Below are positions 1 through 27,905 of a stretch of DNA of 40,876 nucleotides, piece by piece. The notes beneath the pieces are model-generated. The model was not told the DNA's origin and did no database searches. It worked only from the letters and a program-made list of their open reading frames with translations. This DNA comes from a virus: UHGV virus genome UHGV-0232575. One strand, 5' to 3'. Made by a program: the position numbers and the translations under genes. How positions within the stretch are numbered: the first letter of the stretch is position 1; the number at the start of each line of letters is the position of its first letter.

Positions 1-459
1 AAAGAGTTTATCCACGAATGTAATGAACTAAGACAGTTTCAAATTATTACTAAAACAGGCTGGACCTTTGATAGAACGGTTGCACGTGATAGTGAAGGTA
101 ATAAGTTCAACGCACAAAAGGTTAACCGTGTATTCGCAGTAAAAGACAAAACTAATGCAGTAGAATTGTTTAAGGTCAAAGAAGGTCAATTATTAGATAT
201 TGAAGCTGATGAATTTAAAGATAACATTTCATATACAAAAGGATTGGCAAACGCACCAGAGTACTACACAATCAGTAATGAAGCGATTGGCGAAGGTATT
301 ACAATTGATGAAGTTGACAAACAATACTATATTGACCAAGTAGAAGATACGCTTGAACTATGGTTTGGTGAAAATTGGAAAGAACGTATTGAACAAGCAC
401 ATCATGAACGTAATGTAAAAGGTTTTAAACAATTAGAAGTTAAAAATTACATTGACTAA
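1..459 (+). CDS. 3' end of a + strand gene truncated by the window edge; hypothetical, possibly replication-associated
   Basis: Frame 1 is open from base 1 to the stop at 457-459, with no internal start. An early promoter lies immediately downstream. Confidence 0.5.
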   Translation, partial: KEFIHECNELRQFQIITKTGWTFDRTVARDSEGNKFNAQKVNRVFAVKDKTNAVELFKVKEGQLLDIEADEFKDNISYTKGLANAPEYYTISNEAIGEGITIDEVDKQYYIDQVEDTLELWFGENWKERIEQAHHERNVKGFKQLEVKNYID

Positions 460-463
460 AGTG

Positions 464-492
464 TTGACAACCTCCTTTTAACATGATATACT
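464..492 (+). promoter_or_regulatory. Early sigma70-type promoter TTGACA-17-TATACT with an extended TG
   Basis: TTGACA at 464-469, a 17-nt spacer and tgaTATACT at 484-492. This is the first copy of the conserved 40-bp promoter/leader module. Confidence 0.6.
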
Positions 493-523
493 TAGTTCAT
501 AAGTTAAGAGGAGGAATTAAACA

Positions 524-1036
524 ATGGAAAAATGGAAAGACATTGTAGAATATGAGGGTCTATATCAAGTAAGTAACTTAGGTAATGTTTACTCATTTAA
601 AACTAATAAATACTTAAAACCTAGTGGTGATAAATATTTACATGTAATATTATCTAAGAATAATAGAACTAAGACGGTTAGGATACACCGTTTAGTAGCA
701 GAAGCATTCATACCAAACCCAGATAATAAACCGCAAGTAAACCATATTGATGGTGATAGATATAACAATAATGTTAAAAATTTAGAATGGCTTACATGTA
801 AAGAAAATATAGTACATGCTTATGACTATCTTGGTAAAGTTGCTAGTACCACAAATGCACATAATAGTAATAAAGTAAGATGTGAAGTTATTGAAAAATC
901 AAATGGTAATAGTATTATATTTGATAGTATAAAGGAGGCTGAAAACTACTACGGTGTGCATACCAACACATTTAGTAGGGCTATAACTAAACAAAATGGT
1001 AAAATGAGAAAATACAATATAAGAAAGTTGGATTAA
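524..1036 (+). CDS. HNH homing endonuclease (NUMOD4 + HNH_3 + C-terminal DNA-binding module)
   Basis: EGLYQVSNLG NUMOD4-like motif; NHIDGDRYNNNVKNLEW HNH core; C-terminal IFDSIKEAENYYGV...SRAITK IENR/NUMOD1-like helix. Strong RBS AGGAGGAA. Confidence 0.85.
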   Translation: MEKWKDIVEYEGLYQVSNLGNVYSFKTNKYLKPSGDKYLHVILSKNNRTKTVRIHRLVAEAFIPNPDNKPQVNHIDGDRYNNNVKNLEWLTCKENIVHAYDYLGKVASTTNAHNSNKVRCEVIEKSNGNSIIFDSIKEAENYYGVHTNTFSRAITKQNGKMRKYNIRKLD

Positions 1037-1037
1037 A

Positions 1038-1262
1038 ATGTTAACAGTATATACTAAAAATAATTGTTTCCCCTGTACAATGACCAAACGTAAGTTACAA
1101 GAATTAGGGGCTACCTACCAGGAAATTAATATTGATGAAGATTTGAGCGCACTAAACTATTTAATGGAATGTGGATTTCGTTCATTGCCAGTGGTTTACT
1201 TAGATGATGAACCTATTATTACTGGTGGATTTGCACCAAATATCTTAGAAAAGCTTGTGTGA
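1038..1262 (+). CDS. nrdH: Glutaredoxin-like protein (NrdH-like thioredoxin-fold redoxin)
   Basis: CFPC redox motif near the N-terminus; 73 aa; GGF near the C-terminus. Start overlaps the upstream stop (TAAAATG). Confidence 0.75.
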   Translation: MLTVYTKNNCFPCTMTKRKLQELGATYQEINIDEDLSALNYLMECGFRSLPVVYLDDEPIITGGFAPNILEKLV

Positions 1263-1325
1263 GAGGAGCATTCTAAGCACGTTTCAGATTCAAAGTAAGG
1301 TGATTATCCATTAAAAAACAAATAA

Positions 1326-1357
1326 AGACACCCTATATAGGGTGTCTTTTGTGTTTT
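1326..1357. terminator. Bidirectional rho-independent terminator between the converging early (+) and late (-) arms
   Basis: Hairpin agacaccctatataGGGTGTCT followed by TTTTGTGTTTT; an A-run upstream serves the - strand. Confidence 0.7.
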
Positions 1358-2339
1358 ATTGATATAATAAAGTGTTTTTGTTTTCAGTGAATAACCAAAT
1401 GAACTCTTCTGGTAACTGTACATGAGATAATGTATAACCACCGTAAGGTGTTTGCTCTTGCACTACACCTACAGAATTAACTTGGAAATTGAAGTAATCA
1501 CCTACAGAAAGAACTTGGTCTTTGGTTGGTTGCCCAGTAGCTGGGTTTACTTTATCAACAACACTAACTGGAATACCGTTATCAGTCCAATTAAAGTCAA
1601 TTTTACCTAAATGTTCGTTATAGATTTGCCACATTCCGTTTACATATTCCAACCCATCAACTCTATAGTTAAAACGTTGTTTTTGAGGTGTTACACTTGG
1701 TTTAGAGGGTTTGTTAGGTGTTGCTGGGTTTGACGGCTTAGAATCACCCTGAACGCCATTTGCTAAGTCTTTAGCAAGTTGTGCTTTACTGATTCCCATT
1801 TCTGCTAAGTAACCATATGGGTCTGTGTGGTCACCCCATACATAATCTGATACCCATTTATGAGAGATAACACCTTTTTCCCAAACAGAAGAACCTTGGT
1901 CAAGTGTCATAGGAATACCAAACTTTTTACCCATGTCTCTTGTATAATCAATGTATGCTTTATAGTTCTTTTTGAACAATTCCTTATCATGTGTATGTTG
2001 CAACTCAATTTGAATAGGTGCGTAGGGGTTTGCGTTACCAGCCCCCCATGAGATGTTACCTTCTGGTGCAATCTTATAAACAATACCACCATCACCAACG
2101 ATAGCTGTTGTATGTGCGTTAAACCAGTTATTTTTCATGTACGTTGCTTCAGTTCTTCCTGTGGCACGTTCATTAGCAGTTTCATGTAAGATAATCTTAT
2201 TAGGTACTGCAACCTGTCCTGAACCTTCCCAAGGACTTAAATTGAACTCGTTATTAACTTCATATGCGTTAGCTGTTTGCATTCCAGCAAACAAACCAAT
2301 GGTTGCTAATGCACCAAATAAAATACCTTTTAATTTCAT
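1356..2339 (-). CDS. Endolysin: N-acetylmuramoyl-L-alanine amidase (Amidase_2/PGRP) with N-terminal Sec signal peptide and C-terminal cell-wall-binding domain
   Basis: N-terminal MKLKGILFGALATIGLFAGMQTANA signal-peptide-like segment with an AxA cleavage site. Amidase_2-like core (ILHETANE...HTTAIVGDGG...) and a proline-rich linker. Confidence 0.85.
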   Translation of the reverse strand: MKLKGILFGALATIGLFAGMQTANAYEVNNEFNLSPWEGSGQVAVPNKIILHETANERATGRTEATYMKNNWFNAHTTAIVGDGGIVYKIAPEGNISWGAGNANPYAPIQIELQHTHDKELFKKNYKAYIDYTRDMGKKFGIPMTLDQGSSVWEKGVISHKWVSDYVWGDHTDPYGYLAEMGISKAQLAKDLANGVQGDSKPSNPATPNKPSKPSVTPQKQRFNYRVDGLEYVNGMWQIYNEHLGKIDFNWTDNGIPVSVVDKVNPATGQPTKDQVLSVGDYFNFQVNSVGVVQEQTPYGGYTLSHVQLPEEFIWLFTENKNTLLYQ

Positions 2340-2341
2340 AA

Positions 2342-2575
2342 TTATTTGTCCTCCTTATTGTCTCTAATACCTTTTGTGGTTGGGTCTATAACTACCCCTA
2401 AAATACTTAACACAACGAATACTGCATTAACAACATCAATTAGTTGTTGACTCAAACCAGTTAGGTTTGATAAGTCTAATCCAAAAATGTTTCCCACAAC
2501 TTGAATCAGAACAATTACTGCTGGAATTAAAGCAATCCAGAACGCTTTGTTTTTGATACGTGTTTTCCAATCCAT
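2342..2575 (-). CDS. Holin (two-TM, LAB-phage holin family)
   Basis: Two hydrophobic helices with a charged C-terminus. The preferred start MDWKTRIK at 2575 has an AGGAGA RBS 8 nt upstream. The longer ORF reaching 2659 is Cys-rich and lacks an RBS. Confidence 0.75.
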   Translation of the reverse strand: MDWKTRIKNKAFWIALIPAVIVLIQVVGNIFGLDLSNLTGLSQQLIDVVNAVFVVLSILGVVIDPTTKGIRDNKEDK

Positions 2576-2589
2576 TTTTAACACTCTCC

Positions 2590-2835
2590 TTATAATATAG
2601 TTATAATAGCACCAATAACAGCAACAATGATTGCCCCTGATACTGTGCGTGTTAGCCAAGTTAAACGGTCATTTATACTAGCAATGTCTTTCTCATTTTG
2701 AATTGAACGGTGATGGGTTTCACTCAATAAATTATTGTTTGCCTTTAATTCATTTTTCAAATCTGGAATACCTTCCAAGTTTGATTCAATTCTAGCTAGT
2801 TGCACTTTTATTTCCATAAAGTCCTTATCTTCCAT
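2590..2835 (-). CDS. XhlA-like lysis-associated membrane protein
   Basis: 81 aa with an N-terminal coiled coil and a single C-terminal TM (AIIVAVIGAIITIL). It sits immediately upstream of the holin. RBS GGGAGA. Confidence 0.6.
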   Translation of the reverse strand: MEDKDFMEIKVQLARIESNLEGIPDLKNELKANNNLLSETHHRSIQNEKDIASINDRLTWLTRTVSGAIIVAVIGAIITIL

Positions 2836-2885
2836 GCCTACATCTCCCTATCTTATTATAATCACCGCCTTTCAGCTACTATTAT

Positions 2886-2894
2886 AGTATAGCA
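2886..2894 (-). promoter_or_regulatory. Extended -10 late promoter (TGCTATACT) for the lysis cassette
   Basis: The - strand reads aaaTGCTATACTATAATAGTAGC about 55 nt upstream of the xhlA-like start. Confidence 0.5.
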
Positions 2895-2972
2895 TTTAAA
2901 TAAGGGAAATAGTGTGCTTCACAGGACGATTCTAAGCGTTTTTCAGATTGAAAGTAAGGTGTTTGTACATTA

Positions 2973-3002
2973 AAATGCAAATAAAAAACACCCCTGAAAA
3001 GA
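2973..3002. terminator. Bidirectional rho-independent terminator
   Basis: aaaaACACCCCtgaaaagAGGTGTTTTT, with T-runs on both strands. Confidence 0.65.
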
Positions 3003-3013
3003 GGTGTTTTTAA

Positions 3014-3307
3014 CTATAATAAATCAGAAAGTAATGCTTCTAATTTTGCTAGTCTTTCAGCCATTTCTTCCTTAGTTGGTTCTGGTGGTTTATTGGCTTC
3101 TTCATCTAAAAACTTTTGGAAAGCATTATTTGTATTTCTAGTCAATTCTTTTCCATCATAGTAATAATTATGAAAGTCAATCAACCCACCTTGCATAGAG
3201 TTTGCCGTTGTAATATCAATGTCAACTTCTACATAGTCACCAAATGGTTCTGTTGTATAACCAGTTAGAAAACCGGTCTTATTCTCAATCCAAATTTTCA
3301 TATTCAT
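3014..3307 (-). CDS. Hypothetical tail-associated protein downstream of Tal/RBP
   Basis: ORF 3014-3346. The likely start MNMKIW at 3307 is preceded by AGGAAGG. It overlaps the end of the upstream gene. Confidence 0.55.
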   Translation of the reverse strand: MNMKIWIENKTGFLTGYTTEPFGDYVEVDIDITTANSMQGGLIDFHNYYYDGKELTRNTNNAFQKFLDEEANKPPEPTKEEMAERLAKLEALLSDLL

Positions 3308-3315
3308 CAACCTTC

Positions 3316-5376
3316 CTATACTGAAAATATACTTGTCAATACCCATTTAGCACCATTACCAGTACCATTATTGGCTCTGCCAGTTACACTCCTATTTGAT
3401 ACATATACGTATTTATATACAGTGTCATCCACACCACCACCACTAGCTCCACCACTTTGCAATCTCATACTAATACCTCTACCATTATTGAAATTGGCAT
3501 GTGCTTTAGGTACTAAATAATAATTGTATTCCCAAGGCTGTGGTTTTCCATTTGTGGCGTCGTATGGTTGCCATAAAAATAACCAACCAATTGCACACTC
3601 TTCCATTTTTAAAGTTGGTATAATGCTATCCGTATTTGTTACCCATGAATTGCCAGGGTATATCTTACGTCCTGTATTTGCAAATTGCATAATTAATTCA
3701 GCTGTTAAGAAACCACTGTGACCACTACTATCTTGTAATGATAGTCCAGCTGGTGTTAGACTTACATATTGATTAATTGAACCATCTGTGTTTAATACAC
3801 GTCCATCAAACCCTTGTGAAAATAACCTTGTTGAGCCTGTTCTATTTGTTGTTAAGTTCTTGTATTCAATTTCCATTTCACCACCAGCCACTGTTGATAC
3901 ACCTTCTAATTGTTCACCAGCTACTGTTGCTTTAAATGTATTCAAAAATTCAGAACCATTGATTGTAGAACCGTTCATTGTGATAGCGTTTAATGTTTCA
4001 ATGTTTAGCACAGCTTGGTCAATTGTTTGTTCAATCCATTCTGTTTTTAAATCGTCCCAAACCTTATAAGAAGCGATCTTAGGACTCTCTTTTACTTCAC
4101 GTGTTTCATAGTCACCTAGTCTTGCTATGGTTGGTTGCGGTACTGTTCCATCAACAACCCACCACATATCCCCTTGTTTTGGATTAACTGGCGGTTCTTC
4201 TTGTACAAATACACGTGGTATACTTCTAACTTTATTATTTATCTGGTCCGCTAGCTTTCTTAAATTATCATTAATGCCTGATTCTAAAACAACGAAATCA
4301 CTTAGTTGTGCTTCAACACTGTCTGTTGTATAATCATACTTCAATTCTTGAACACGTGATTTTAGATATAACTTTTCGTTTTCATCTACTAACTTAATAT
4401 AGTCACCAACTTGTAAATTGTAAGGTATGTTGGCAATGTCAACTTCATATGCAACCAGTGGTTTTCCATAATCTTTTAGATGTTTAACTGCATAGTCACG
4501 CAACTTGTTTTGTGCTGTTGTTTCAAACTCTAATTGCTGTTGAAAATAGTTTGATTCGTTGTGGGTTCTTGACCAGTGCTTTACATTCTCTTTGTCGTAA
4601 ATATACCCAGTTGCCTTATCTAAGTAAAAACGACCGTTAGGGTCTACCCAGTTATACCCAACTAAGTCAACAGGTTTTTCTTTACCTTCTGGAATCCCAC
4701 CAATTGGTTTTATTGCATTAACTAGTTGGTAAATATCTTCTTTAGTAGTTATTGAGTTAATATCTTTATTAACATAAAGTGTGTGTACTTCATCTGTACC
4801 ACGCTTCTTCTTAATATCAATATATCTACCTGTTAATTCATTACCTTTAAATGTAAACCTAAAATCAAGTTCTGCATTATCAAATTGGGTTGCTACTGAT
4901 TGAATACGTTCCAATGCTGTTGCTCCTGAATCCCATTCTAATGCTCTAGTTAGTCCAGATATTTCATTTATACCAACTTTGAAACCACTACTTGATGTAA
5001 ATATTTCAATATAGTATTTAATAGGAAATGCTTTTGTTTCCTTGTGTTTACCAACATGTTGGTTTAAAAGGTCTAGTGAAGCGTCTTCTAATTCCATACT
5101 GCGTGTTTGTGTCAATGGATTGTGTGTTGATTCTAAAATTGTCATCCATTCGTGTTTACCATTTAAGTCTTTATACAAAACGTAGTTACCAACTTTGAAT
5201 ACATCTTTAGCAAGTGCGCTTGTTTCTGGTGTAAATGATACATCTAGGCTCATGCGTCTACTTGCAGTTGCTAAACTTATTGTATCCTCTGTTGATGTTA
5301 CTTTGAATTGAGTACCACCACTGGTTGATACAATATCTAGTAACTTAAATGTCCTATCTGTAATGTAAAAGTCCAT
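3316..5376 (-). CDS. Tail-associated protein Tal / receptor-binding tail fiber (phage minor structural protein N-terminal domain, prophage tail endopeptidase-like)
   Basis: 686 aa; N-terminal MDFYITDRTFKLLDIV is typical of siphovirus Tal; Gly-rich C-terminal region; position directly after Dit. Confidence 0.75.
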   Translation of the reverse strand: MDFYITDRTFKLLDIVSTSGGTQFKVTSTEDTISLATASRRMSLDVSFTPETSALAKDVFKVGNYVLYKDLNGKHEWMTILESTHNPLTQTRSMELEDASLDLLNQHVGKHKETKAFPIKYYIEIFTSSSGFKVGINEISGLTRALEWDSGATALERIQSVATQFDNAELDFRFTFKGNELTGRYIDIKKKRGTDEVHTLYVNKDINSITTKEDIYQLVNAIKPIGGIPEGKEKPVDLVGYNWVDPNGRFYLDKATGYIYDKENVKHWSRTHNESNYFQQQLEFETTAQNKLRDYAVKHLKDYGKPLVAYEVDIANIPYNLQVGDYIKLVDENEKLYLKSRVQELKYDYTTDSVEAQLSDFVVLESGINDNLRKLADQINNKVRSIPRVFVQEEPPVNPKQGDMWWVVDGTVPQPTIARLGDYETREVKESPKIASYKVWDDLKTEWIEQTIDQAVLNIETLNAITMNGSTINGSEFLNTFKATVAGEQLEGVSTVAGGEMEIEYKNLTTNRTGSTRLFSQGFDGRVLNTDGSINQYVSLTPAGLSLQDSSGHSGFLTAELIMQFANTGRKIYPGNSWVTNTDSIIPTLKMEECAIGWLFLWQPYDATNGKPQPWEYNYYLVPKAHANFNNGRGISMRLQSGGASGGGVDDTVYKYVYVSNRSVTGRANNGTGNGAKWVLTSIFSV

Positions 5377-5405: not shown

Positions 5406-5414
5406 ATTATAACA
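5406..5414 (-). promoter_or_regulatory. Extended -10 promoter (TGTTATAAT) upstream of tal
   Basis: The - strand reads tttttgTGTTATAATgagtatataaat, just after the intergenic hairpin. Confidence 0.45.
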
Positions 5415-5442
5415 CAAAAACAAAGGGGTGTAAACCCCTTTG
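5412..5442 (-). terminator. Intergenic stem-loop/terminator after dit
   Basis: caaaGGGGTttacaCCCCtttg followed by TTTTTGTG on the - strand. Confidence 0.55.
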
Positions 5443-5446
5443 TATC

Positions 5447-7534
5447 TTATAGATATGTTTGTTCTAAAATGCAATTCACTTCTGGTTGTAGCGCCCATGA
5501 TGAATAGAAAGGTAGTATTTCATGTTCTCCTACATCAAGTCTAAATGCTTCCCACTGATTACCAACAACATTCAGTTCATTGTTGATAGCACCATTGATG
5601 TATACATTACGTGAGTACGTGTCTAATTCTACTAAGTCACCATCTTTGTAATAGTTGCGTACATCTTTTATGTGCTTAACGTTTAACCAACGTAGTTTAG
5701 CATCTGTAACCATAACTTGGTTTGCTCTAAAGTTACTATACTGTTTAAACCAGAAACCAAACTTGTCTAAATTAGACTTGTCAGAAACATTGTATGTGAA
5801 AATGTAGTTGTCGCCTACCACAACGTTATTATATTTATTTATTCCTTTGATACTTGCTAAGCGCCATTTTATATATGTTTCAGTACGTTCAATGTTTATT
5901 TCCAGCTTAGTATTACCAAACTTCTTCTTGTCTAATGTGTACTCGTGTACCTTTTCACCCATATACCAACATTCCATAATGGTATGATTGGTACTGTATA
6001 ATGAATCTCTAAATAATGTATTGATTACTGGGTTTCCAGCTGTGTCACCAATCATAAATTCTAAATGTGCCATTGGTGGGTTGTCTTTATAGTTTGTAAA
6101 AATGAAACGTATGTTAGCAACAAAAGCTGATGTTCTATCATTTGTAGATGGTGCAGTTATTGGTACAACTGCCGTTGGTCCATGCCAAACATCTGTTTTT
6201 TCACCAGTAAAATCTGGTACTACTGAATCAACATCTTTTGTCATGTTTAATGTACCATCAACTAAGTTTGGTGTATCTGGGTTGTTTAGATAATTAGGAT
6301 ATATACTAATGAAACCACTGTTCTGTACCATATTGTCAGGTAGGTTTGGACCCCAAAAATCTAACCACTGCACTGTTTCTGTTCTTGTCTGTTCTGTGTA
6401 GTCAACCTCTTCTGGGTTTCCAAATTGTAAAATATCACCATTTTTGTTTACCAACCCAACCATGCCATTATCACCATTCATCTTGAATGAAAAGCGTGGG
6501 TAGGCTTTGTATGTTCCGTTGTTTACAACTTTTAATTCTTTTCTTAATTCAATTAATGATTTTTGATAAGTCATTGGTGCCGTAGTATCAAGTGCAAACA
6601 TTGGTTCACATATATCACCGCTCACATGGTCACCGTACAAACCAAAGTTCATTGATAATCCAGTTGTTTCAGGACTTTTGATAGTTATTGTTTTAAAGTA
6701 CAATGTCCAGTCTTTTACCTCATTAGGTATTTGAATAACATGTGTATATGTTTTTCTAATTGGATTGTCTGCCCATTCAATTAAAATTAGCCCTGATGTT
6801 TTATCTGGTATTACTTCATTGTCTACTACGTTGATACGCACTTTAGCTTGAAAGCCAACTGTTTGACCTACCTCTAAATCTAGGTTCATACGTCTATTGT
6901 ATGCGTCATAGAAAAACCATGCTTGGTGTGGTGTGCTGTTGTCTGTATAGTATGCTGGTATACCAGCGGTGAAGTCACAACTTAATACATTTTGACCAAA
7001 GTGCTTTTCTGGTGAAAGTTGCGCCCACGGTTTATAGTATTGGTCTTTGCGTTCAAAATTTGAATCTAATACCATATTACTGTTTTTAGTTGTTACATTA
7101 TTAAAATTTGAAGCTTCAACTTGGTGGGCAAGTGCGTCTGGAACATCAAAGGTTAATGTAAAAGGTGTGTACTTTGTGTCTGTAGCGTCATACTCTTCTG
7201 TCCCTGTGAATATTGCGTTAAAATATCTATCTGGCATTTGGTCCAATATAAGTCGTTTTGGTTCGTCTGAATTGATAATTTTAACTAATTCATCTTTAGT
7301 TTCTGATACAGTCATGCCACTGTTGTCTGATATAATGAAACCATCAATTGATATTGCGTATTCACCTAATCTAGTATTTCTGAAATGTTTACCGTCAGTA
7401 TTACCAACTGTGTAAAAATCATTATCTTTTGACAGAAAAGGTACATTTACTTTTGCTATCTGAAACAAGTGGCTTGTTTCTTTACCGTCAAATGTAAAGC
7501 TTCTCAAAAAATCATAATTTTGTGCCATTTTCAT
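5447..7534 (-). CDS. Distal tail protein Dit (long, evolved form with inserted domains)
   Basis: 695 aa ORF immediately downstream of TMP and upstream of Tal. The Dit call rests on synteny. The length implies inserted domains of the carbohydrate-binding kind. Confidence 0.65.
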   Translation of the reverse strand: MKMAQNYDFLRSFTFDGKETSHLFQIAKVNVPFLSKDNDFYTVGNTDGKHFRNTRLGEYAISIDGFIISDNSGMTVSETKDELVKIINSDEPKRLILDQMPDRYFNAIFTGTEEYDATDTKYTPFTLTFDVPDALAHQVEASNFNNVTTKNSNMVLDSNFERKDQYYKPWAQLSPEKHFGQNVLSCDFTAGIPAYYTDNSTPHQAWFFYDAYNRRMNLDLEVGQTVGFQAKVRINVVDNEVIPDKTSGLILIEWADNPIRKTYTHVIQIPNEVKDWTLYFKTITIKSPETTGLSMNFGLYGDHVSGDICEPMFALDTTAPMTYQKSLIELRKELKVVNNGTYKAYPRFSFKMNGDNGMVGLVNKNGDILQFGNPEEVDYTEQTRTETVQWLDFWGPNLPDNMVQNSGFISIYPNYLNNPDTPNLVDGTLNMTKDVDSVVPDFTGEKTDVWHGPTAVVPITAPSTNDRTSAFVANIRFIFTNYKDNPPMAHLEFMIGDTAGNPVINTLFRDSLYSTNHTIMECWYMGEKVHEYTLDKKKFGNTKLEINIERTETYIKWRLASIKGINKYNNVVVGDNYIFTYNVSDKSNLDKFGFWFKQYSNFRANQVMVTDAKLRWLNVKHIKDVRNYYKDGDLVELDTYSRNVYINGAINNELNVVGNQWEAFRLDVGEHEILPFYSSWALQPEVNCILEQTYL

Positions 7535-7560: not shown

Positions 7561-7569
7561 ATTATAACA
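7561..7569 (-). promoter_or_regulatory. Extended -10 promoter (TGTTATAAT + ACTAGTATAGTAAA box) upstream of dit
   Basis: The - strand reads ttttgTGTTATAATactagtatagtaaatt. Confidence 0.45.
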
Positions 7570-7600
7570 CAAAAGGCAACCCTTGTAAAGGGGTTGCCTT
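7567..7600 (-). terminator. Stem-loop/terminator after the TMP gene
   Basis: A 10-bp stem AAGGCAACCC/GGGTTGCCTT followed by TTTTGTG on the - strand. Confidence 0.6.
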
Positions 7601-12151: not shown

Positions 12152-12180
12152 TAAAAAAAGAAGAGCTGTCAAGCTCTTCT
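12152..12180 (-). terminator. Rho-independent terminator after the major tail protein gene
   Basis: GAAGAGCTtgacAGCTCTTC followed by TTTTTTT on the - strand. Confidence 0.7.
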
Positions 12181-12248
12181 AAGTCAATTCAATTGTTACA
12201 CTTGTGTCAGCTGGTGTCACCTGCCCTACCACAGGTGGATTAGCTGGG
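12179..12248 (-). other. Conserved post-stop recoding-like element, copy B (after MTP): the +1 frame encodes a 21-aa extension and a hairpin CACCTGTGGTAGGGCAGGTG follows
   Basis: The + strand shows CCC AGC TAA then tCCACCTGTGGTAGGGCAGGTGACACCAGCTGACACAAGTGTAACAATTGAATTGACTTAG. It is ~88% identical to copy A at 15145-15214. Confidence 0.6.
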
Positions 12249-12812
12249 TAAACCGTTGTTTACTTTGTCAACAAACTTATCAAGTGTTAATGTATCGCTT
12301 GAAACAGCACTCATGTATGCAAAGCCACGTGAATCTGTTACAAATGAACCTTCAATTGTTTCTGTATTTGGTTCTGTACCACCAGATTCTGTTGTATTCA
12401 ATGCGATTTCTGGGTGGCTGAAACGTCCTTTAACTAAACCAAAGTACATCTCTTTACCGTCTGCACCGTCTGCAACAAATACTGCTGAAACGTAAGGCGC
12501 TTCTGTATTTTCACCAACGATTGCAATACCATCTTTATCACGTTCAATACCTAAAATTTTCTCATAAACGTTGTTTTTATACAAGTCAAATACGTTTAAT
12601 GAAGCTGTTAACTCTCCAACTCCTTTAGCTGATACCCAAATTGGAACGTTTGACGCATAAACGGTTGTTTGTTCTGCTGAAATTCCTTTAATTGACGCTT
12701 CAATAGTACCGCCACCGCTTTTATCAATTGTGTATTTATCAACACCTGAACCTGCTTTTTTAGGTACACTAATGATTGCTTTTTTGAATCCTACTACAGC
12801 TATGATAACCAC
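12240..12812 (-). CDS. Major tail protein (phi13-like family)
   Basis: 190 aa at the typical MTP position. GTG start with a nearby GAGGAG RBS; start is uncertain. Confidence 0.75.
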   Translation of the reverse strand: MVIIAVVGFKKAIISVPKKAGSGVDKYTIDKSGGGTIEASIKGISAEQTTVYASNVPIWVSAKGVGELTASLNVFDLYKNNVYEKILGIERDKDGIAIVGENTEAPYVSAVFVADGADGKEMYFGLVKGRFSHPEIALNTTESGGTEPNTETIEGSFVTDSRGFAYMSAVSSDTLTLDKFVDKVNNGLPS

Positions 12813-15144: not shown

Positions 15145-15214
15145 TTAACTCAATTCAATTGATACACTTTTATCTGCTGGTGTCACCTGTCCTACCACAG
15201 GTGGTGTACTAGGG
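15145..15214 (-). other. Conserved post-stop recoding-like element, copy A (after MCP): the +1 frame encodes a 21-aa extension and a hairpin CACCTGTGGTAGGACAGGTG follows
   Basis: The + strand shows CCC TAG then tacaCCACCTGTGGTAGGACAGGTGACACCAGCAGATAAAAGTGTATCAATTGAATTGAGTTAA. The +1 frame from CCC gives P-STPPVVGQVTPADKSVSIELS-stop. Confidence 0.6.
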
Positions 15215-16429
15215 CAATTGTGGTGTTAATGTAATGAATTTACCAGCGTTTTTGTCTACTACTTTAGCATCAAAACGCATGAAGATTGCTAAGTATTGAC
15301 CATAAATTTCGTGGTCAATCCAACGAGCAGTAGTTTCAGCACGATTGAAGAATGTTGCAAATGCTACTGGGTCGCCTAAGAATGCCACTTTATCACCTTT
15401 GTTACCTAACATTTCATCTTTCAACACTGTTACTGGAACACCAAACAATGATTTACCAGACTGTGCTGTAATGTCAGTTTGTAATAAGTAACGGCCTTCA
15501 CCGTCTTTCATGATGTCAACTGCGTTGTAGAATGATTGAGTAACAATTAATTCTAAACCGTAAGCTGGGTCGAAACCAGTGTTGATTTGAGTTTTGATAT
15601 CATCTAATGATTTAGCTGTTACTGCTGTAGCTGTTTTTAACAAGTTAGCTAAAACAAAGTTAGTTGTGTTTAAGCCTTGACGTTGTACTGAATCAGCAAT
15701 AATTCCAGCTAAGTCGTCCGCGGAATCATCTAATGATTCTTGTGATACAACAATTTGACCACGGTAAGTTGATACGTTGTAAGGTACTTCTTCAAATTCA
15801 GGTTTTGCCAATGCTGGGTTTTTTGCCAACTCTTCAACTGTCACCATTTTTGCAGTAGTTGATTTCAAGATTGGGTATTTACCGCCAGAAGTTTTTACTT
15901 TGATACTATTCACTTTATTACGTAAGTCAACAACTGTTTCTGGTAATTTACGTGCTTTTGTGATAATATCTTCTGGAATAATTGCTTCTGCGTCTGTTGA
16001 TTTAACTTGTCCGTCACCAACCGCACGTGTTTCGTTAAATGATTTTACGCTAGTTGATTTTGAAGTTACGTAGTCTAAAAACGCACGTTGTTCTGTTACT
16101 GGCTCTGCTAAGTCTTTACCATTGATTTTTACTTTCTCCATGTCAATATCTTCTCCTTTTGCGTTCTCAATTGAACGTTCTTCTTTTTTTGGTTCTTCCT
16201 TTGGTTTGTCTTTGACTTCGTCTTTAGGTTCGTCCTTTGGTTCTTCTTTAGGCTCTTCCTTTTTGACTTCGTCTTTAGGTGCTTCTGTTTTATCTTCTGC
16301 ACGTTCTTCGTTTTCAGCTGGTGTTTTATCTTTCAAAGCTTCTAACTGTTCAATAACTTTTTTAGCTTCGTCAAGTTTACCTTCTGCCAACAAAGATTTT
16401 GCTTGCGCTTCTAACTCTGCCTTGTTCAT
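15209..16429 (-). CDS. Major capsid protein (HK97-like) with an N-terminal scaffold-like delta domain
   Basis: 406 aa. N-terminal coiled coil plus KE/P-rich repeats (EEPKEEPKDEPKDEVKDKPKEEPKKEE), then the capsid core. No separate scaffold gene is present. RBS AAGGAG. Confidence 0.85.
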   Translation of the reverse strand: MNKAELEAQAKSLLAEGKLDEAKKVIEQLEALKDKTPAENEERAEDKTEAPKDEVKKEEPKEEPKDEPKDEVKDKPKEEPKKEERSIENAKGEDIDMEKVKINGKDLAEPVTEQRAFLDYVTSKSTSVKSFNETRAVGDGQVKSTDAEAIIPEDIITKARKLPETVVDLRNKVNSIKVKTSGGKYPILKSTTAKMVTVEELAKNPALAKPEFEEVPYNVSTYRGQIVVSQESLDDSADDLAGIIADSVQRQGLNTTNFVLANLLKTATAVTAKSLDDIKTQINTGFDPAYGLELIVTQSFYNAVDIMKDGEGRYLLQTDITAQSGKSLFGVPVTVLKDEMLGNKGDKVAFLGDPVAFATFFNRAETTARWIDHEIYGQYLAIFMRFDAKVVDKNAGKFITLTPQLP

Positions 16430-21126: not shown

Positions 21127-21135
21127 ATTATAACA
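21127..21135 (-). promoter_or_regulatory. Extended -10 promoter-like TGTTATAAT directly downstream of terS, facing the non-coding gap
   Basis: The - strand reads caatttgTGTTATAATgtatttatgg. No credible ORF lies downstream before the tandem terminators. Confidence 0.4.
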
Positions 21136-21142
21136 CAAATTG

Positions 21143-21616
21143 CTAACCTTGTGCGCGCATTTTAAGCAATTGACCTAGTGGGTCTTTGCTTTCGTCCTCT
21201 ACTTCTTTTGGTGCTACCAGTTTTAATCTTGAATTGATAGTTAAACCTAAGTCATTCGTTGCGCTTTTGATTTGCTTACTATAACCCATCATAGCGGTTA
21301 CTTTGGGGTTCAGTTTTCCTTCGTTTGTCACTTCACCCTCAATAGACACCTCTTCTGCTAATTTACTATATAAGTAAACGTAGTTACAATAAGAAACCAG
21401 TGTTTGTGAATCTAACTCACTCAGTGGTAATGACCCAGCAAAGTTACCAATTCTTTCCCATTCTGGATATGCACCCCTTAACAACCCCATTGGAAAATAT
21501 GAAAAGTCTAAAGGTTCATAATTATATAAGTTCTCCTCTTCTTTTTTCTTTTGAAATTGTTGTTCTTGTGTTAAATTACCCTGTTGTGCATTTAATAACT
21601 TACGTGGTCTACCCAT
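21143..21616 (-). CDS. terS: Terminase small subunit (P27 family)
   Basis: 157 aa. The MGRPRK N-terminus and size fit P27-type terS. AAGGAGGTG RBS. Associated with HNH and Terminase_1 terL. Confidence 0.8.
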   Translation of the reverse strand: MGRPRKLLNAQQGNLTQEQQFQKKKEEENLYNYEPLDFSYFPMGLLRGAYPEWERIGNFAGSLPLSELDSQTLVSYCNYVYLYSKLAEEVSIEGEVTNEGKLNPKVTAMMGYSKQIKSATNDLGLTINSRLKLVAPKEVEDESKDPLGQLLKMRAQG

Positions 21617-22108
21617 TTAGTTCACCTCCTTATATTTAAAGGTGTATCCTCCACATGTTTTGCGCTTACCTTTTAAAACTTTTACAATTGAACCATCATC
21701 AATTTTCAAATCTCTAGCGCAACCTCTAATTGAATCATACTCAATTCCATTTGAACAAATTATTTGTTTTGATTTTTGTGTTTTCTGCTGTGTTTCAATT
21801 TGTCGTTTGGTTCTTGTTCCATGATTGATATTCTCTTTAGATGTTGACCATTCTAGGTTAGATACAAAATTATTTGTTTTGCATTCATCAATATGGTTTA
21901 CCTGTGGTTTTTTATCTGGGTTTGGTATAAATGCTTCTGCAACTAAACGGTGTACCCTCCTAAAGTGTGCTTTATTATCTTTCCACAATGTAACTGTCTT
22001 ATATCCATCTTTGTCAATATTTTGTTTTAACCGTTTGACGTTGTTATATACATTACCATAGTTGTCAACGTAGTATCTACCTTTAAATTCTAATACATCT
22101 TTCTTCAT
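21617..22108 (-). CDS. HNH homing endonuclease (NUMOD4-HNH_3 type) inserted between the cos-HNH and terS genes
   Basis: YYVDNYGNVYN NUMOD4-like; VNHIDECKTNNFVSNLEW HNH core; C-terminal GYTFKY. The preferred start MKKDV has an AGGAGG RBS. Confidence 0.8.
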   Translation of the reverse strand: MKKDVLEFKGRYYVDNYGNVYNNVKRLKQNIDKDGYKTVTLWKDNKAHFRRVHRLVAEAFIPNPDKKPQVNHIDECKTNNFVSNLEWSTSKENINHGTRTKRQIETQQKTQKSKQIICSNGIEYDSIRGCARDLKIDDGSIVKVLKGKRKTCGGYTFKYKEVN

Positions 22109-22164
22109 TGTATAACCTCCTATATAATATTTAATAGTATAACACATTATATAATAGGTGTCAA

Positions 22165-22599: not shown

Positions 22600-22680
22600 T
22601 GTAGCCACCAAAAATTTGGCGGGGGGTGTTAAAATTTTCAGCTACCCTCCCTTCGCTTTTGGCGCTATCCCCCTTAAAAT
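22600..22680. other. Candidate cos site: GC-rich tract in an AT-rich genome
   Basis: ccaccaaaaatttGGCGGGGGGTGtt...ctaCCCTCCCttcgcttttggcgctatCCCCC, with a near-palindrome CCGCCAAAtttTTTGGtGG. It lies directly downstream of the cos-type HNH gene. Confidence 0.4.
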
Positions 22681-23075
22681 TATTTATGGTTAGCCCTACC
22701 TGCATTTTTAAAGGAATGAGCGTGCTCCTCTTTATTGTGACAGGATTGGCAAATTGATTCTAAATTATTAATATCTAAACGTTTTTCCCAACCAATTGGT
22801 GTACGTATTTCCTCCACATGGTGGACGATAGTGGCAAGCGTCTTGGTGTGGTCATTGCGTTCACATACTTCACACATTGGATTGATACTTAACTTGTATT
22901 GTCTCATTCGTTTCCATTCACTTGACTGGTAGAACTCTGCATACCTTTTGTTCTGTGGATTAGTGCGCACATACTTATTGTATTGTGTGGCTGTGTTACC
23001 TTTGTGCTTATCACAATACACCTCTGGTTGCTTTACATATTCTCTACATAAAGCAACCTTACACTTCTTATACAT
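22680..23075 (-). CDS. Terminase-associated HNH endonuclease (HK97 gp74-like, cos-cleavage cofactor)
   Basis: 131 aa. CxxC...HH...N...CxxCH zinc-finger HNH pattern (CEVCERN...HHVEE...NLESICQSCHNKEEH). Confidence 0.8.
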   Translation of the reverse strand: MYKKCKVALCREYVKQPEVYCDKHKGNTATQYNKYVRTNPQNKRYAEFYQSSEWKRMRQYKLSINPMCEVCERNDHTKTLATIVHHVEEIRTPIGWEKRLDINNLESICQSCHNKEEHAHSFKNAGRANHK

Positions 23076-23569: not shown

Positions 23570-23625
23570 TACTTATCTGTAGTTTAGGGAATAGATTAAT
23601 CATTAAGATGTATGAAATGTTCTTC

Positions 23626-23908
23626 ATGTGTTCTCTGTGTTCTCGGTGTGTTCTCTGTTTAAGTAACCAATTGATTCAATCGAGAACACCTATAAACGTT
23701 GATAAACCAAGATTCTTGGTTCATTTTATTATAAGTGTTCTCTGTGTTCTCTATATATTCTACTCTATCTAGAGATGAATACAGAAGGGAATGGTGTGTC
23801 TGGTAGGTGAGTAGTAAAACGACCCCCATACAGAGAACACTTTTGTTAAATCCCTTGTGGCTCTAAGGCTCAACCCTGTTCCTCATTGAAGAACAAACAG
23901 AGAACACT
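23626..23908. promoter_or_regulatory. Iteron/operator array: 8 copies of GTGTTCTCTGT-like motif (5 direct, 3 inverted) in the divergent control region
   Basis: Direct copies at 23628, 23637, 23648, 23735 and 23744. Inverted copies at 23681, 23830 and 23897. A palindrome CCAAGAtTCTTGG lies at 23708-23720. Confidence 0.6.
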
Positions 23909-25934: not shown

Positions 25935-25972
25935 GGAGAAAGTTAAATAAAACAGTTGACTTTCTCTTTTTT
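25935..25972 (+). terminator. Rho-independent terminator whose 3' stem arm contains the -35 box of the next promoter
   Basis: GAGAAAGTtaaataaaacagttgACTTTCTC followed by TTTTTT. TTGACT at 25956-25961 lies inside the hairpin. Confidence 0.6.
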
Positions 25973-25984
25973 AGATGATATAGT
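25956..25984 (+). promoter_or_regulatory. Early promoter TTGACT-17-TATAGT
   Basis: Consensus spacing, upstream of the primase-helicase gene. Confidence 0.55.
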
Positions 25985-26013
25985 AATGTCATAAGATATT
26001 AGGAGGAATAATA

Positions 26014-27603: not shown

Positions 27604-27640
27604 AAAGAAAGTTGACTAAAACAGTTGACTTTCTTTTTTT
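27604..27640 (+). terminator. Rho-independent terminator with an embedded -35 box
   Basis: AAAGAAAGTtgactaaaacagttgACTTTCTTT followed by TTTTT. Confidence 0.65.
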
Positions 27641-27653
27641 CGCATGATATACT
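27625..27653 (+). promoter_or_regulatory. Early promoter TTGACT-17-TATACT; second copy of the conserved 40-bp promoter/leader module
   Basis: 27645-27684 is identical to 484-523. Confidence 0.6.
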
Positions 27654-27684
27654 TAGTTCATAAGTTAAGAGGAGGAATTAAACA

Positions 27685-27873: not shown

Positions 27874-27884
27874 AAATCAGAAAA

Positions 27885-27905
27885 GGGGTTGACAAGCTCA
27901 ACCCC
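27885..27905 (+). terminator. Stem-loop (terminator-like, no T-run) embedding a -35 box
   Basis: GGGGTTGAcaagcTCAACCCC, with TTGACA at 27889-27894. Confidence 0.4.

What the first reader, a model, noticed from the sequence alone, without database searches (positions are those of the whole stretch)
1270..2990. Paired ~65-bp conserved elements, each ending in a bidirectional terminator, flank the XhlA-holin-endolysin module
1270-1335 (ATTCTAAGCACGTTTCAGATTCAAAGTAAGGTGATTATCCATTAAAAAACAAATAAAGACACCC) and 2929-2990 (ATTCTAAGCGTTTTTCAGATTGAAAGTAAGGTGTTTGTACATTAAAATGCAAATAAAAAACACCCC) are ~80% identical direct repeats. Each is immediately followed by a GC-rich hairpin terminator, and the two bracket exactly the lysis cassette. 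On the + strand each copy looks like the body of a ~90-nt terminator-ended RNA. On the - strand each copy lies just after a terminator. One reading is recombination scars or target sites for modular exchange of the lysis cassette. Another is paralogous small RNAs. A third is conserved regulatory DNA.
Basis: seen in the sequence. Interest (0 to 1): 0.6.

Follow-up and report, generated by a model that had tools for sequence, protein, structure and literature searches.

The report
Paired conserved elements flanking phage lysis genes
Two copies of a roughly 60-bp non-coding sequence, each next to a transcription terminator, really do bracket the lysis genes of this Enterococcus phage; they belong to a previously undescribed family also found on hundreds of enterococcal plasmids, most likely work as DNA sites rather than small RNAs, and their exact function is still unknown.

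Summary
The window is a near-complete Efquatrovirus-type Enterococcus siphophage. It holds exactly two same-orientation copies of a ~65-nt element (A about 1258-1323, B about 2917-2983). Each abuts an intrinsic terminator (1324-1349, 2984-3011), and together they bracket XhlA-holin-endolysin.

- **Distribution.** Both copies occur in about 150 phages of two sister groups. A and B are old paralogues that still exchange sequence by gene conversion.
- **RNA readings fail.** The core is unstructured on both strands, shows no covariation and matches no Rfam family. Copy B has no conserved + strand promoter, and its terminator works mainly for the - strand. The paired-sRNA reading is therefore weak.
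- **Architecture.** A left block (GAGC-ATTCTAAG-N4-TT), a variable centre, and a right block (GGTRATTAY), with exactly 21 nt between ATTCTAAG and GGT.
- **Wider family.** Related elements occur in more than 400 Enterococcus plasmids, and in Vagococcus and Lactobacillus plasmids or chromosomes, in varied intergenic contexts.
- **Recombination.** Breakpoints cluster at copy A.

My best reading (about 0.35) is a bipartite DNA control site read on the - strand, lying upstream of the -35-less extended -10 lysis promoter. A passive recombination junction is the main rival. Function is unproven.

The parts
1258..1323 (.). Element copy A. Left block TGAGAGGAGC-ATTCTAAG (ATTCTAAG at 1270-1277); variable centre about 1288-1298; right block GGTGATTATCC at 1299-1309; A-rich tract 1310-1323. 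It starts at the stop codon of the NrdH-like gene (1038-1262, + strand).
   Evidence: Core 1270-1309 shows 0.92-0.95 mean pairwise identity among 25 distinct Efquatrovirus sequences, higher than the flanking coding sequence.
1324..1349 (.). Bidirectional intrinsic terminator A (AAAGACACCC-TATA-GGGTGTCTTT). It ends the + strand early/middle operon and the - strand lysis cassette.
   Evidence: Called on both strands. The stem changes in a compensatory way among relatives: CACCC/GGGTG, CCCCC/GGAGG, CCTCC/GGGGG, CCACTGG/CCAGTGG.
1356..2339 (-). Endolysin gene (327 aa), the last gene of the lysis cassette. Its 3' part is swapped among relatives; three types (W, E, S) were seen.
2342..2575 (-). Holin gene.
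   Evidence: annotation of relatives.
2590..2835 (-). XhlA-family gene, the first gene of the lysis cassette.
   Evidence: annotation of relatives.
2886..2894 (-). Extended -10 promoter-like site of the lysis cassette. It reads TGCTATACT on the - strand. The hexamer at the -35 position is CACTAT, which does not resemble TTGACA.
   Evidence: Read from the sequence. It aligns at the same distance (37 nt from ATTCTAAG) with TGTTATAAT of the sister group. It is retained as TGTTATACT in L036, which lacks copy B. No transcription start site has been mapped.
2917..2983 (.). Element copy B. Left block CTTCACAGGACG-ATTCTAAG (ATTCTAAG at 2929-2936); centre 2947-2957, A-like ('B1') in this phage; right block GGTGTTTGTAC at 2958-2968; A-rich tract 2969-2983, which forms the U-tract of the - strand terminator.
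2984..3011 (-). Intrinsic terminator B, which ends the - strand tail-gene operon.
   Evidence: Called on the - strand only. The + strand U-tract is weak or absent in the sister group.

Best explanation
Each copy is a bipartite DNA recognition element of about 58 bp. It has a left block (GAGC-ATTCTAAG-N4-TT), a non-specific spacer, and a right block (GGTRATTAY), with exactly 21 nt between ATTCTAAG and GGT. I propose it acts in transcription control read leftwards, on the - strand.

In the phage, the element lies immediately downstream of each - strand terminator.
- Copy B occupies roughly -45 to -105 relative to the lysis cassette's extended -10 promoter (TGCTATACT), which has no recognisable -35.
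- The reverse complement of the invariant left block is itself a -10-like TAGAAT.

The proposed mechanism is that a factor binds the two blocks and sets when the lysis genes are transcribed. The factor would be host-encoded or common to enterococcal mobile elements. It could work by activating the -35-less promoter, by providing a second activator-dependent start, or by repressing until late. Copy A would be a second site of the same kind at the convergence point with the early operon, acting as an antisense start, an insulator or a looping partner.

Shown: the element's anatomy, conservation, distribution and position. Inferred: any protein binding, any transcription start, and the role of copy A.
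For: 1. The only level common to both copies is DNA. Copy A is transcribed on the + strand as a 3' UTR. Copy B has no conserved + strand promoter, and - strand RNA would have to cross a terminator first.
2. The core is unstructured on both strands (z = +0.35 to +0.83). RNAalifold finds no consensus structure in 62 distinct copies.
3. Two conserved blocks sit at a fixed 21-nt distance around a variable centre. This holds in phages, plasmids and chromosomes, including copies found by BLAST rather than by the pattern.
4. The distance from ATTCTAAG to the lysis -10 is 37 nt in both phage genera. L069 has a similar layout, with the element followed after 43 nt by TGCTAAAAT.
5. Variants of ATTCTAAG seen in relatives are ATTATAAG, ATTTTAAG (twice independently) and ATTCTATG. 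On the - strand these read TAtAAT and TAaAAT, or change a base outside the hexamer. The pattern is what a TAnAAT -10 hexamer would tolerate, with rough p about 0.02.
6. In L073 the element abuts the ribosome-binding site of the next - strand gene.
7. In E. faecalis plasmids and in L071, the - orientation would yield an ~80-95-nt transcript ending at a terminator.
8. Core conservation exceeds that of the flanking coding sequence, and the element survives between genera whose genes are only 65-74% identical.
Against: - No transcription start or protein binding has been observed for any phage copy.
- dRNA-seq of E. faecalis V583 lists no start at the position predicted from the diverged pTEF1 copy (TAGAAT at 7295-7300). 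The real start is at 7392, from a separate promoter (PMC7724050 Table S1).
- There is no conserved -35 at 16-18 nt from TAGAAT, and no TGn extension.
- Copy A points into the antisense of the NrdH gene, where no function is evident.
- Each copy is dispensable in some lineage. DELF1 lacks A, EF36P-type phages keep only its last 22 nt, and L036 lacks B yet keeps the extended -10 promoter.
- Pfam and PHROG scans of ten small early proteins recognised no regulator.
- Non-phage copies lie in every kind of intergenic context, so their orientation relative to genes is not decisive.
- Retrieval by pattern biases the apparent invariance of the pattern columns.
Confidence: 0.35

Rival explanations
1. 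Passive recombination junction. The lysis cassette, or the element-plus-terminator unit, was duplicated by a Campbell-type or unequal homologous exchange. The two copies persist because each carries a needed terminator and because gene conversion keeps them alike. They matter only as patches of homology at which neighbouring variable gene ends are swapped between co-infecting phages: the endolysin C-terminus and the distal tail genes.
For: - Four-gamete violations place breakpoints within the ~100 bp of copy A plus its terminator.
- Conservation falls from about 0.9 to 0.3-0.6 exactly to the right of both terminators.
- Gene conversion occurs in both directions. B1 centres are A-like in 14 of 22 distinct B copies, L044's B even has an A-type terminator, and L004 and L043 A copies carry B-like parts.
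- Each copy can be lost.
- The left block of B is homologous to the last codons of the sister group's tmk gene, as expected if B arose as a copy of a gene's 3' end plus its 3' flank.
- The right ~16 nt of the element is simply the terminator's A/U-tract.
Against: - A-type and B-type centres are each conserved across two genera, so B is not merely overwritten by A.
- Two blocks at fixed spacing are conserved at 55-70% identity in plasmids and chromosomes of Enterococcus, Vagococcus and Lactobacillus. That is too diverged to serve homologous recombination with the phages, which points to sequence-specific recognition.
- The copy A core is more conserved than the adjacent coding sequence.
- Direct repeats flanking an essential cassette are a liability, because they allow deletion.
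Confidence: 0.25
2. Site for a site-specific recombinase. The element, especially the left block, is recognised by small catalytic-domain-only tyrosine recombinases of enterococcal and lactobacillal mobile elements. Cassettes integrate at it, leaving direct repeats on both sides. The phage copies are the flanks of such an event.
For: - In L074, two direct left-block copies (2501 and 3413) flank a small tyrosine recombinase gene, and an inverted left block lies 40 nt from the first.
- L070 has a homologous recombinase next to the element (28% identity, E 2e-19; both match Pfam Phage_integrase).
- L069 has AGAATCGCT-8 nt-AGCGATTCT, a lox-like arm-spacer-arm layout.
- L047 has inverted left blocks 38 nt apart.
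- The phage shows the same pattern of a cassette between direct repeats.
Against: - The phage copies have no inverted partner arm at a core-site distance, so they are not complete core sites.
- These virulent phages encode no recombinase of this kind (annotation).
- Most non-phage copies have no such recombinase adjacent.
- Mobile elements are rich in recombinases, so adjacency in 2 of about 12 contexts may be chance.
- A and B share both blocks and differ in the centre, the opposite of attL/attR hybrids.
Confidence: 0.1
3. + strand RNA function: a 3'-UTR-derived or independent ~90-nt terminator-ended small RNA with an unstructured conserved body.
For: - Copy A certainly lies in the 3' UTR of the early/middle operon, directly before a good + strand terminator.
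- An unstructured body followed by a terminator hairpin is a common sRNA layout.
- L072 repeats the gene-stop, element, terminator layout on a Vagococcus plasmid.
Against: - Copy B has no conserved + strand promoter. The only promoter-like sites are inside this phage's own B variant (2948-2976) or are the non-conserved 2578-2607.
- Terminator B is called only on the - strand, and in the sister group it mostly lacks a + strand U-tract.
- Many non-phage copies have the terminator on the other side or none at all.
- The centre, where a seed might be expected, is the variable part.
- No Rfam family matches, and sub-threshold hits are driven by the terminator.
Confidence: 0.1
4. - strand RNA element acting on read-through transcripts. 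Placed just after each - strand terminator, it would stop or process leaked transcripts. This would keep the lysis genes independent of the strong tail promoters and keep late transcription out of the early operon.
For: - In the phages the order on the - strand is always terminator then element.
- L036, which lacks copy B, also lacks the terminator there.
Against: - The sequence has no C-over-G skew of the kind Rho-utilisation sites show (+ strand G 12, C 10, counted).
- It has no structure.
- Non-phage copies are often not preceded by a terminator on that strand.
Confidence: 0.08

Closest known systems
Conserved 'boundary' or 'linker' sequences at module junctions of lambdoid phages (Botstein's modular theory; cited from my own knowledge, not checked in the paper library)
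   Same: Both are short conserved non-coding stretches at gene-module borders, next to segments that differ between relatives. Here recombination breakpoints are demonstrably concentrated at copy A.
   Different: This element is present twice per genome in direct orientation. It has two blocks at fixed spacing. It is also conserved, at a divergence too great for homologous exchange, on plasmids and chromosomes of several Lactobacillales genera.
Activator-dependent phage late or lysis promoters with an upstream binding site and no -35, such as Mu Mor/C-dependent promoters, TP901-1 Alt, and the RinA/ArpU/LtrC late activators of Gram-positive phages (PMC3753634 appeared in the search but was not opened)
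   Same: A -35-less extended -10 promoter precedes the lysis genes, with a conserved block just upstream of it. The position fits a class I or class II activator site.
   Different: No activator gene was identified and no transcription start is mapped. A second copy sits where there is no gene to activate. The same element occurs on plasmids unrelated to phage late genes.
Bidirectional intrinsic terminators at convergent operon ends
   Same: Each copy is fused to a GC-rich hairpin with flanking A- and T-tracts. The right ~16 nt of the 'element' is the - strand U-tract.
   Different: About 50 nt beyond any terminator requirement is conserved. Non-phage relatives keep those 50 nt without a terminator.
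Phage-borne mimics of plasmid antitoxin RNA (pseudo-ToxI of phage PhiTE; cited from my own knowledge)
   Same: A virulent phage carries short non-coding sequence homologous to sequence on plasmids of its host. Those plasmids carry abortive-infection and toxin-antitoxin genes nearby: AbiV and Fst in L075, AbiEii and MqsR in L074.
   Different: No toxin gene is directly linked to the element. There is no tandem repeat array and no evidence that the element is an RNA.

Membership tests
Any curated RNA family (Rfam 15) | Match at or above the family's gathering score | tested here: not met
   There were 0 hits in the window. The permissive scan of 1000-3300 gives only terminator-driven sub-threshold hits; the best is RefA9 at 34.5 bits against 49, at 1324-1381 on the - strand. 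No hit lies on the element in ten non-phage loci.
Structured small RNA or cis-regulatory RNA | Stable or conserved secondary structure with covariation in the conserved body | tested here: not met
   The core folds no better than shuffles on either strand (z = +0.35 to +0.83). RNAalifold on 62 distinct copies gives no consensus pairs on either strand.
Independent + strand sRNA gene | Its own promoter upstream and a terminator that works on that strand, in both copies | tested here: not met
   Copy A has no promoter of its own; it is a 3' UTR. Copy B has no conserved + strand promoter. Terminator B is called on the - strand only and lacks a + strand U-tract in the sister group.
Intrinsic (Rho-independent) terminator | GC-rich hairpin followed by a U-tract, with the stem kept by compensatory changes | tested here: met
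   One search finds the terminators at 1324-1349 (both strands) and 3011-2984 (- strand). The stems differ between relatives but stay paired. This applies to the hairpins, not to the ~50-nt element.
Sigma-A promoter on the - strand | -10 hexamer TAnnnT | tested here: met
   TAGAAT is the reverse complement of the invariant ATTCTA. Variants in relatives are TATAAT and TAAAAT.
Sigma-A promoter on the - strand | -35 hexamer at 16-18 nt, or a TGn extension | tested here: not met
   The -35 position falls in the variable centre (TTACTT, CACCTA, AATCAA and others). There is no TG at -15/-14 (read).
Sigma-A promoter on the - strand | A mapped transcription start about 7 nt downstream of the -10 | tested here: not met
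   The only available data concern the diverged pTEF1 copy. V583 dRNA-seq lists starts at 5087 and 7392, and none near 7307 (PMC7724050 Table S1). No data exist for the phage copies.
Module-boundary recombination sequence | Recombination breakpoints between relatives concentrated at the element | tested here: met
   All four gametes are seen for NrdH-3' type against endolysin type. There is a sharp conservation step at both terminators.
Tyrosine-recombinase core site (lox, dif or att type) | Two inverted binding arms around a 6-8-bp spacer | tested here: not met
   The phage copies have no such partner. Only L069 shows 9-bp arms with an 8-bp spacer. L047 and L074 have partners 38-40 nt away.
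Tyrosine-recombinase core site (lox, dif or att type) | A cognate recombinase that acts on the site | not testable with these tools
   Homologous small recombinases lie next to the element in L070 and L074. Their activity on the element is unknown.
Small coding gene (mini-ORF) | A conserved reading frame with start, ribosome-binding site and stop in all copies | tested here: not met
   The 12-14-codon frames present on either strand in this window lose their start or stop in IME-EF4-type B copies and in the sister group (read).
Miniature transposable element (MITE) or insertion-sequence end | Terminal inverted repeats and target-site duplication, with many dispersed copies | tested here: inconclusive
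   There are two copies per phage genome and no more. Inverted left blocks occur in L047 and L074 only. No empty sites were examined.

The most novel reading that the evidence does not exclude
The ~58-bp bipartite element (GAGC-ATTCTAAG, then 21 nt, then GGTRATTAY) is the recognition site of an as yet unidentified factor common to Enterococcaceae and Lactobacillales hosts or their mobile elements. The factor could be a regulator or a small tyrosine recombinase. Virulent phages, more than 400 Enterococcus plasmids and Vagococcus elements would all use the site to control or exchange accessory cassettes. In the phage, that cassette is the lysis module. This would be a shared cis-acting 'currency' between phages and plasmids of one host group.
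Probability: 0.25. Interest if true: 0.75.

Novelty: new variant of a known kind. Interest (0 to 1): 0.55.

Why it matters
Efquatroviruses are among the phages most often isolated for therapy against Enterococcus faecalis, yet nothing is known about how they time lysis-gene transcription. If the element is a control site, it gives a handle on lysis timing and a defined target for engineering.

If it is a recombination site or junction, it explains how endolysin and tail-tip modules, which determine host range and cell-wall specificity, are reshuffled. It also marks a deletion-prone architecture around an essential cassette.

The unexpected part is that the same bipartite sequence sits on hundreds of enterococcal plasmids and in Vagococcus and Lactobacillus elements. 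That points to an undescribed cis-element family shared by phages and plasmids of one host clade, and it can be tested directly by pull-down and transcript-end mapping.

Tried and rejected
- **Third copy.** BLAST tables show 3 'places' per genome. The third is the palindromic terminator on the other strand, and the profile search gives exactly 2.
- **Mini-ORFs.** Two candidate frames are not conserved in other copies: ILSTFQIQSKVIIH on the + strand and M[DY][NK]HLT[LF]NLK[RN]A on the - strand.
- **Ribosome-binding role.** AAGGTGAT resembles a Shine-Dalgarno sequence, but no conserved start codon follows, and the motif is lost in L026 A (AATGTAAT).
- **+ strand promoter for copy B.** The site at 2948-2976 exists only in this phage's B variant. 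The 11/12 match at 2578-2607 is not conserved.
- **Other - strand promoter types**, checked by eye. The sigma-54 GG-N10-GC spacing is absent, the sigma-H and ComX boxes have the wrong spacing or flanks, and ECF AAC...CGTC is too close.
- **Known operator motifs**, compared from memory only: cre, CodY box, NrdR box, CIRCE, Rex, ARG box, LexA/Cheo box, DnaA box (TTATCCAtt), dif and SRS. None fits across the family.
- **Rho-utilisation site.** There is no C-over-G skew.
- **CRISPR-repeat mimic.** Only an 8-mer (TTAGAATG) is shared with my recollection of the E. faecalis repeat. That is compatible with chance and was not pursued.
- **Trans-pairing targets in the phage genome.** Only 11-mers at chance frequency were found.
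- **Extra operators.** GGTRATTAYC and SATTCTAAGS occur elsewhere in the window at chance frequency: 12 against 9.8 expected, and 13 against 7.6.
- **Candidate regulator among ten small early proteins.** Pfam and PHROGs give only an HNH nuclease and families of unknown function.
- **Literature.** Searches found no description of the element and no transcriptome of these phages.
- **Element as the exact breakpoint between E. faecalis plasmid backbones.** Homology breaks lie in the terminator or at the next gene, not at the element.
Full report
**What the window is.** The 40,876-bp window is an almost complete genome of a virulent Enterococcus siphophage of the Efquatrovirus type. 115 phage records match the first 4.2 kb; IME196 gives the fullest match (99% of the query at 86.6% identity) and LoneStar the highest identity (94.6%), and the gene order is that of IME-EF4.

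Early and middle genes run on the + strand and end with DNA polymerase, an HNH endonuclease (524-1036) and an NrdH/glutaredoxin-like gene (1038-1262). Late genes run on the - strand and end with tail genes, then XhlA (2835-2590), holin (2575-2342) and endolysin (2339-1356). The two arms converge at 1262-1356.

**Checking the observation.** The repeat is real.
- The repeat finder gives 1249-1326 against 2908-2985, 78 nt at 77% without gaps. MAFFT gives 81%.
- Two 21-nt sub-patterns occur only at these two places. Chance expectation is 0.01 and 0.08, and no shuffle reaches two.
- A profile built from the core finds exactly two copies in this genome and in IME-EF4.
- Each copy abuts a hairpin terminator. 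1324-1349 is called on both strands, and 2984-3011 on the - strand only.
- The three lysis genes lie exactly between the copies.

The similarity extends about 10-20 nt further left. Only terminator A is clearly bidirectional. Part of the ~80% identity in this phage reflects gene conversion (see below).

**Distribution in phages.** Copy A matches 115 phage records and the copy B region matches 124, all from Enterococcus phages.

A sister group of E. faecium and E. gallinarum phages shares the synteny: IME-EFm1, IME-EFm5, SSBHU, KEN18-22, dArtagnan, Aramis, EF36P1-3 and 9184. Its genes are only 65-74% identical to this phage, its lysis genes do not align at the DNA level, and it still has both copies.

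I collected 62 distinct copies from 45 loci, and more from metagenomes. Their anatomy is constant:
- a left block, (T)C(A)C.GAGC-ATTCTAAG-N4-TT(T/A)(C/A)A;
- a variable centre of about 11 nt;
- a right block, GG-TGATTA(T/C)-CC(A)TT;
- an A-rich tract, .GCAAATAAA, which is simply the U-tract of the - strand terminator.

The centre comes in an A type (TCAAAGTAAGG or ATCAAACAAGG) and a B type (GCCAATGTGGG or TGTTAGGTGGG), and both types occur in both genera. The duplication therefore predates the split of the genera, and A and B have since evolved as distinct paralogues.

They still exchange sequence.
- 14 of 22 distinct Efquatrovirus B copies, including the one in this window, carry an A-type centre.
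- One B copy (L044) even has the A-type terminator.
- Some A copies carry B-like parts.

Each copy can also be lost.
- DELF1 has only a terminator at the A position.
- EF36P-type phages keep only the last 22 nt of A.
- SHEF2- and EfaCPT1-type A copies lack TTAAAACGCAAAT.
- One lineage (L036) has A but neither B nor a terminator between the tail gene and xhlA.

**Is it selected?** Within Efquatrovirus, the copy A core (1270-1309) shows 0.92-0.95 mean pairwise identity. The adjacent NrdH coding sequence shows about 0.6-0.9, and the endolysin side 0.3-0.7. The stretch from xhlA through the promoter to copy B is 0.85-1.0, then drops to about 0.5 just right of terminator B. Between the two genera the element is among the few non-coding stretches that still align. 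The terminator stems change by compensatory substitutions, so they are functional hairpins.

**RNA readings.**
- Rfam has no match at gathering thresholds. Permissive hits are all terminator-driven.
- Without its terminator, the core folds no better than shuffled sequence on either strand.
- RNAalifold finds no consensus pair in 62 copies.
- On the + strand, copy A is certainly transcribed as a 3' UTR. Copy B has no conserved promoter: the 11/12 promoter-like match at 2578-2607 varies among close relatives and is absent from the sister group.
- B's terminators in the sister group mostly lack a + strand U-tract.
- On the - strand, the element lies downstream of a terminator, so it would be transcribed only by read-through.

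The 'paralogous ~90-nt sRNA' idea is therefore poorly supported. The only level common to both copies is DNA.

**Position relative to the lysis promoter.** On the - strand, 37 nt beyond ATTCTAAG, lies TGCTATACT (2894-2886). This is an extended -10 with no TTGACA-like -35. It aligns at the same 37-nt distance with TGTTATAAT of the sister group, and it is retained in L036, which lacks copy B.

The other late promoters of this phage are canonical TTTACA-N17-TGTTATAAT sites fused to terminators, at 5434-5406, 7589-7561 and 21152-21127. The lysis cassette therefore has a distinct, probably weaker or regulated, promoter. Copy B occupies the region from about -45 to -105 upstream of it.

**The element is not confined to phages.**
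- A strict 54-bit pattern found nothing in 185,579 bacterial genomes.
- A relaxed 40-bit pattern found two Vagococcus loci and several non-phage metagenomic contigs.
- BLAST with these sequences found Vagococcus, E. hirae and Lactobacillus plasmids.
- One variant occurs in 579 plasmid records. Of these, 418 are Enterococcus, most listed hits being E. faecalis plasmids, and the listed hits cover essentially the full 64-nt query at about 91-97% identity.
- A profile made only from phage copies recovers these loci with E-values from 2.5e-9 to 0.05. The loci were pre-selected by pattern, so these values are optimistic. Matches outside the pattern columns argue for true homology, for example AGGACG or ACGAGC upstream, TTGTTAGGT and ATTATGC.
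- All copies keep exactly 21 nt between ATTCTAAG and GGT, including those found by BLAST.

The contexts are diverse.
- E. faecalis plasmids: after a bacteriocin-immunity operon and its terminator, about 200 nt before a LexA-box promoter.
- V. carniphilus plasmid: between a TnpV gene stop and a bidirectional terminator, the same layout as phage copy A.
- Another Vagococcus plasmid: after a lysis cassette and terminator, overlapping the end of a ParA/DUF5388 operon.
- E. hirae plasmid: directly against the ribosome-binding site of a gene.
- V. vulneris contig: upstream of a toxin-antitoxin operon.
- V. bubulae chromosome and a Lactobacillus plasmid: next to homologous small tyrosine recombinases.

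In the Lactobacillus plasmid, two direct left-block copies flank the recombinase gene. In L047 and L074 an inverted left block lies 38-40 nt away, and in L069 it lies 8 nt away. No Rfam family covers the element in any of these loci.

**What it most likely is.** Conserved primary sequence without structure, two blocks at rigid spacing around a free centre, and occurrence in any orientation relative to neighbouring genes together fit a DNA site read by a protein.

Two further observations point to transcription control on the - strand.
- The reverse complement of the invariant block is TAGAAT. The four natural variants found change only hexamer position 3 (giving TATAAT or TAAAAT) or a base outside the hexamer. 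A -10 element would tolerate exactly this; the rough chance of avoiding the five constrained positions is 0.02.
- The element sits at a fixed distance upstream of the -35-less lysis promoter in both genera.

I therefore favour, at about 0.35, a bipartite control element: an operator, upstream activating site or activator-dependent start. Copy B would modulate lysis-gene transcription, and copy A would be a second site at the early/late convergence point.

The weaknesses are serious.
- No transcription start or binding protein is known.
- The only experimental start-site data are negative. They concern a diverged copy on pTEF1 in uninfected V583.
- No -35 is conserved.
- Copy A faces the antisense of NrdH.
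- Each copy is dispensable somewhere.
- No regulator was recognised among ten small early proteins.

**Main rival.** The main rival, at about 0.25, is a passive recombination junction. All four combinations of NrdH-3' type and endolysin type exist. Conservation steps coincide with both terminators. Gene conversion is frequent. B's left block is homologous to the last codons of the sister group's tmk gene, as if B arose as a copy of a gene's 3' end plus its flank. This explains the mosaic pattern. It does not explain why two blocks at fixed spacing persist in distant plasmids.

A site-specific recombination site (0.1), a + strand RNA (0.1) and a - strand read-through element (0.08) are less likely, for the reasons given under each rival.

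**Comparison with known systems.** The element behaves like the conserved boundary sequences postulated for modular exchange in lambdoid phages. Copy B lies where activator sites of late promoters lie. It is not a member of any Rfam family, it is not a complete sigma-A promoter, and it is not a complete lox/dif-type core site (see the membership table). I found no description of it in the literature available here.

**Verdict.** This is a real, conserved and selected pair of non-coding elements. The sRNA reading is unlikely. The recombination-boundary reading is true as a pattern but is probably not the whole story. The element belongs to a wider, undescribed family shared with enterococcal plasmids. 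Its function remains to be shown by experiment.

Noticed in passing
window 458-526, 25950-26018, 27619-27687, 27883-27951, 31120-31188: A family of five strong + strand promoters (TTGACA-N17-TGATATACT). Each is followed by a nearly identical ~35-nt leader (TAGTTCATAAGTTAAGAGGAGGAATTAAAC) that runs up to the start codon. The conserved 5' UTR may be a shared translational or stability signal for early genes (families D2/D5/D7).
   Followed up: no
window 5406-5443, 7561-7589, 21127-21152 (- strand): Compact terminator-promoter composites on the late strand. A hairpin carries the -35 (TTTACA) and is followed by TTTTGTGTTATAAT, so termination and re-initiation overlap within about 40 nt. This contrasts with the ~100-nt gap at the lysis cassette.
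   Followed up: partly
window 524-1036, 21617-22147, 22680-23075, 29167-29664, 32092-32610, 34049-34651: At least six HNH endonuclease genes or paralogues share DNA repeats (families D1, D3, D8, D11, I1, I2). The 524-1036 copy is absent from IME-EF4 at the same position, as expected for free-standing homing endonucleases.
   Followed up: partly
window 23617-23761: Clustered GTGTTCTCT repeats (family D13) lie in the divergent region between the late and early arms. They may be iterons or operators of the early/late switch or of an origin. A paper on phage Abitsa reports 10-bp iterons near the helicase gene of this genus.
   Followed up: no
window 16175-16312 and 12180-12251 / 15146-15217: A 12-nt tandem periodicity occurs inside a - strand structural gene (family D4). 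A 72-nt repeat pair at 83% identity lies 2,966 nt apart within structural genes (family D12).
   Followed up: no
L074 (Lactobacillus taiwanensis plasmid NZ_CP059277.1) 2495-2575 and 3405-3445: A small tyrosine recombinase gene (2748-3389) is bracketed by two direct copies of the element's left block. An inverted left block lies 40 nt from the first copy, and repeated ATGCGTTAT/ATAACGCAT motifs lie in its promoter region. It looks like a minimal cassette.
   Followed up: partly
L069 (Vagococcus vulneris NZ_NGJS01000029.1) 4345-4380: AGAATCGCT-GCTGAGAG-AGCGATTCT forms 9-bp inverted arms around an 8-bp spacer, made from the element's left block. This is the layout of a lox-type recombination core.
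   Followed up: no
L075/L076 (E. faecalis plasmids pARO1.1 and pMP8-1), about 3393-3807 of L075: A ~415-nt non-coding region is conserved in hundreds of pheromone-type plasmids. It contains a bidirectional terminator, a small dyad (AATATAG...CTATATT), the element, and then a promoter carrying a LexA-type box (GAACGTTTGTTC) before a 172-aa gene upstream of the Fst/par locus.
   Followed up: partly
sister-group loci L023/L024/L026, about 2225-2262: The 3' end of the thymidylate kinase gene forms a hairpin with the left extension of element copy A. The arms are GTGAAGAACACA and TGTGTCTCTCAC, and the pairing is perfect in L026. The gene's stop codon is the TAA inside the invariant ATTCTAAG.
   Followed up: no
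window 3014-3346 (- strand): A 110-aa ORF lies between the minor tail protein gene and terminator B. It is present here but absent in IME-EF4, where the tail gene ends directly at the terminator. It belongs to the variable segment to the right of copy B.
   Followed up: no
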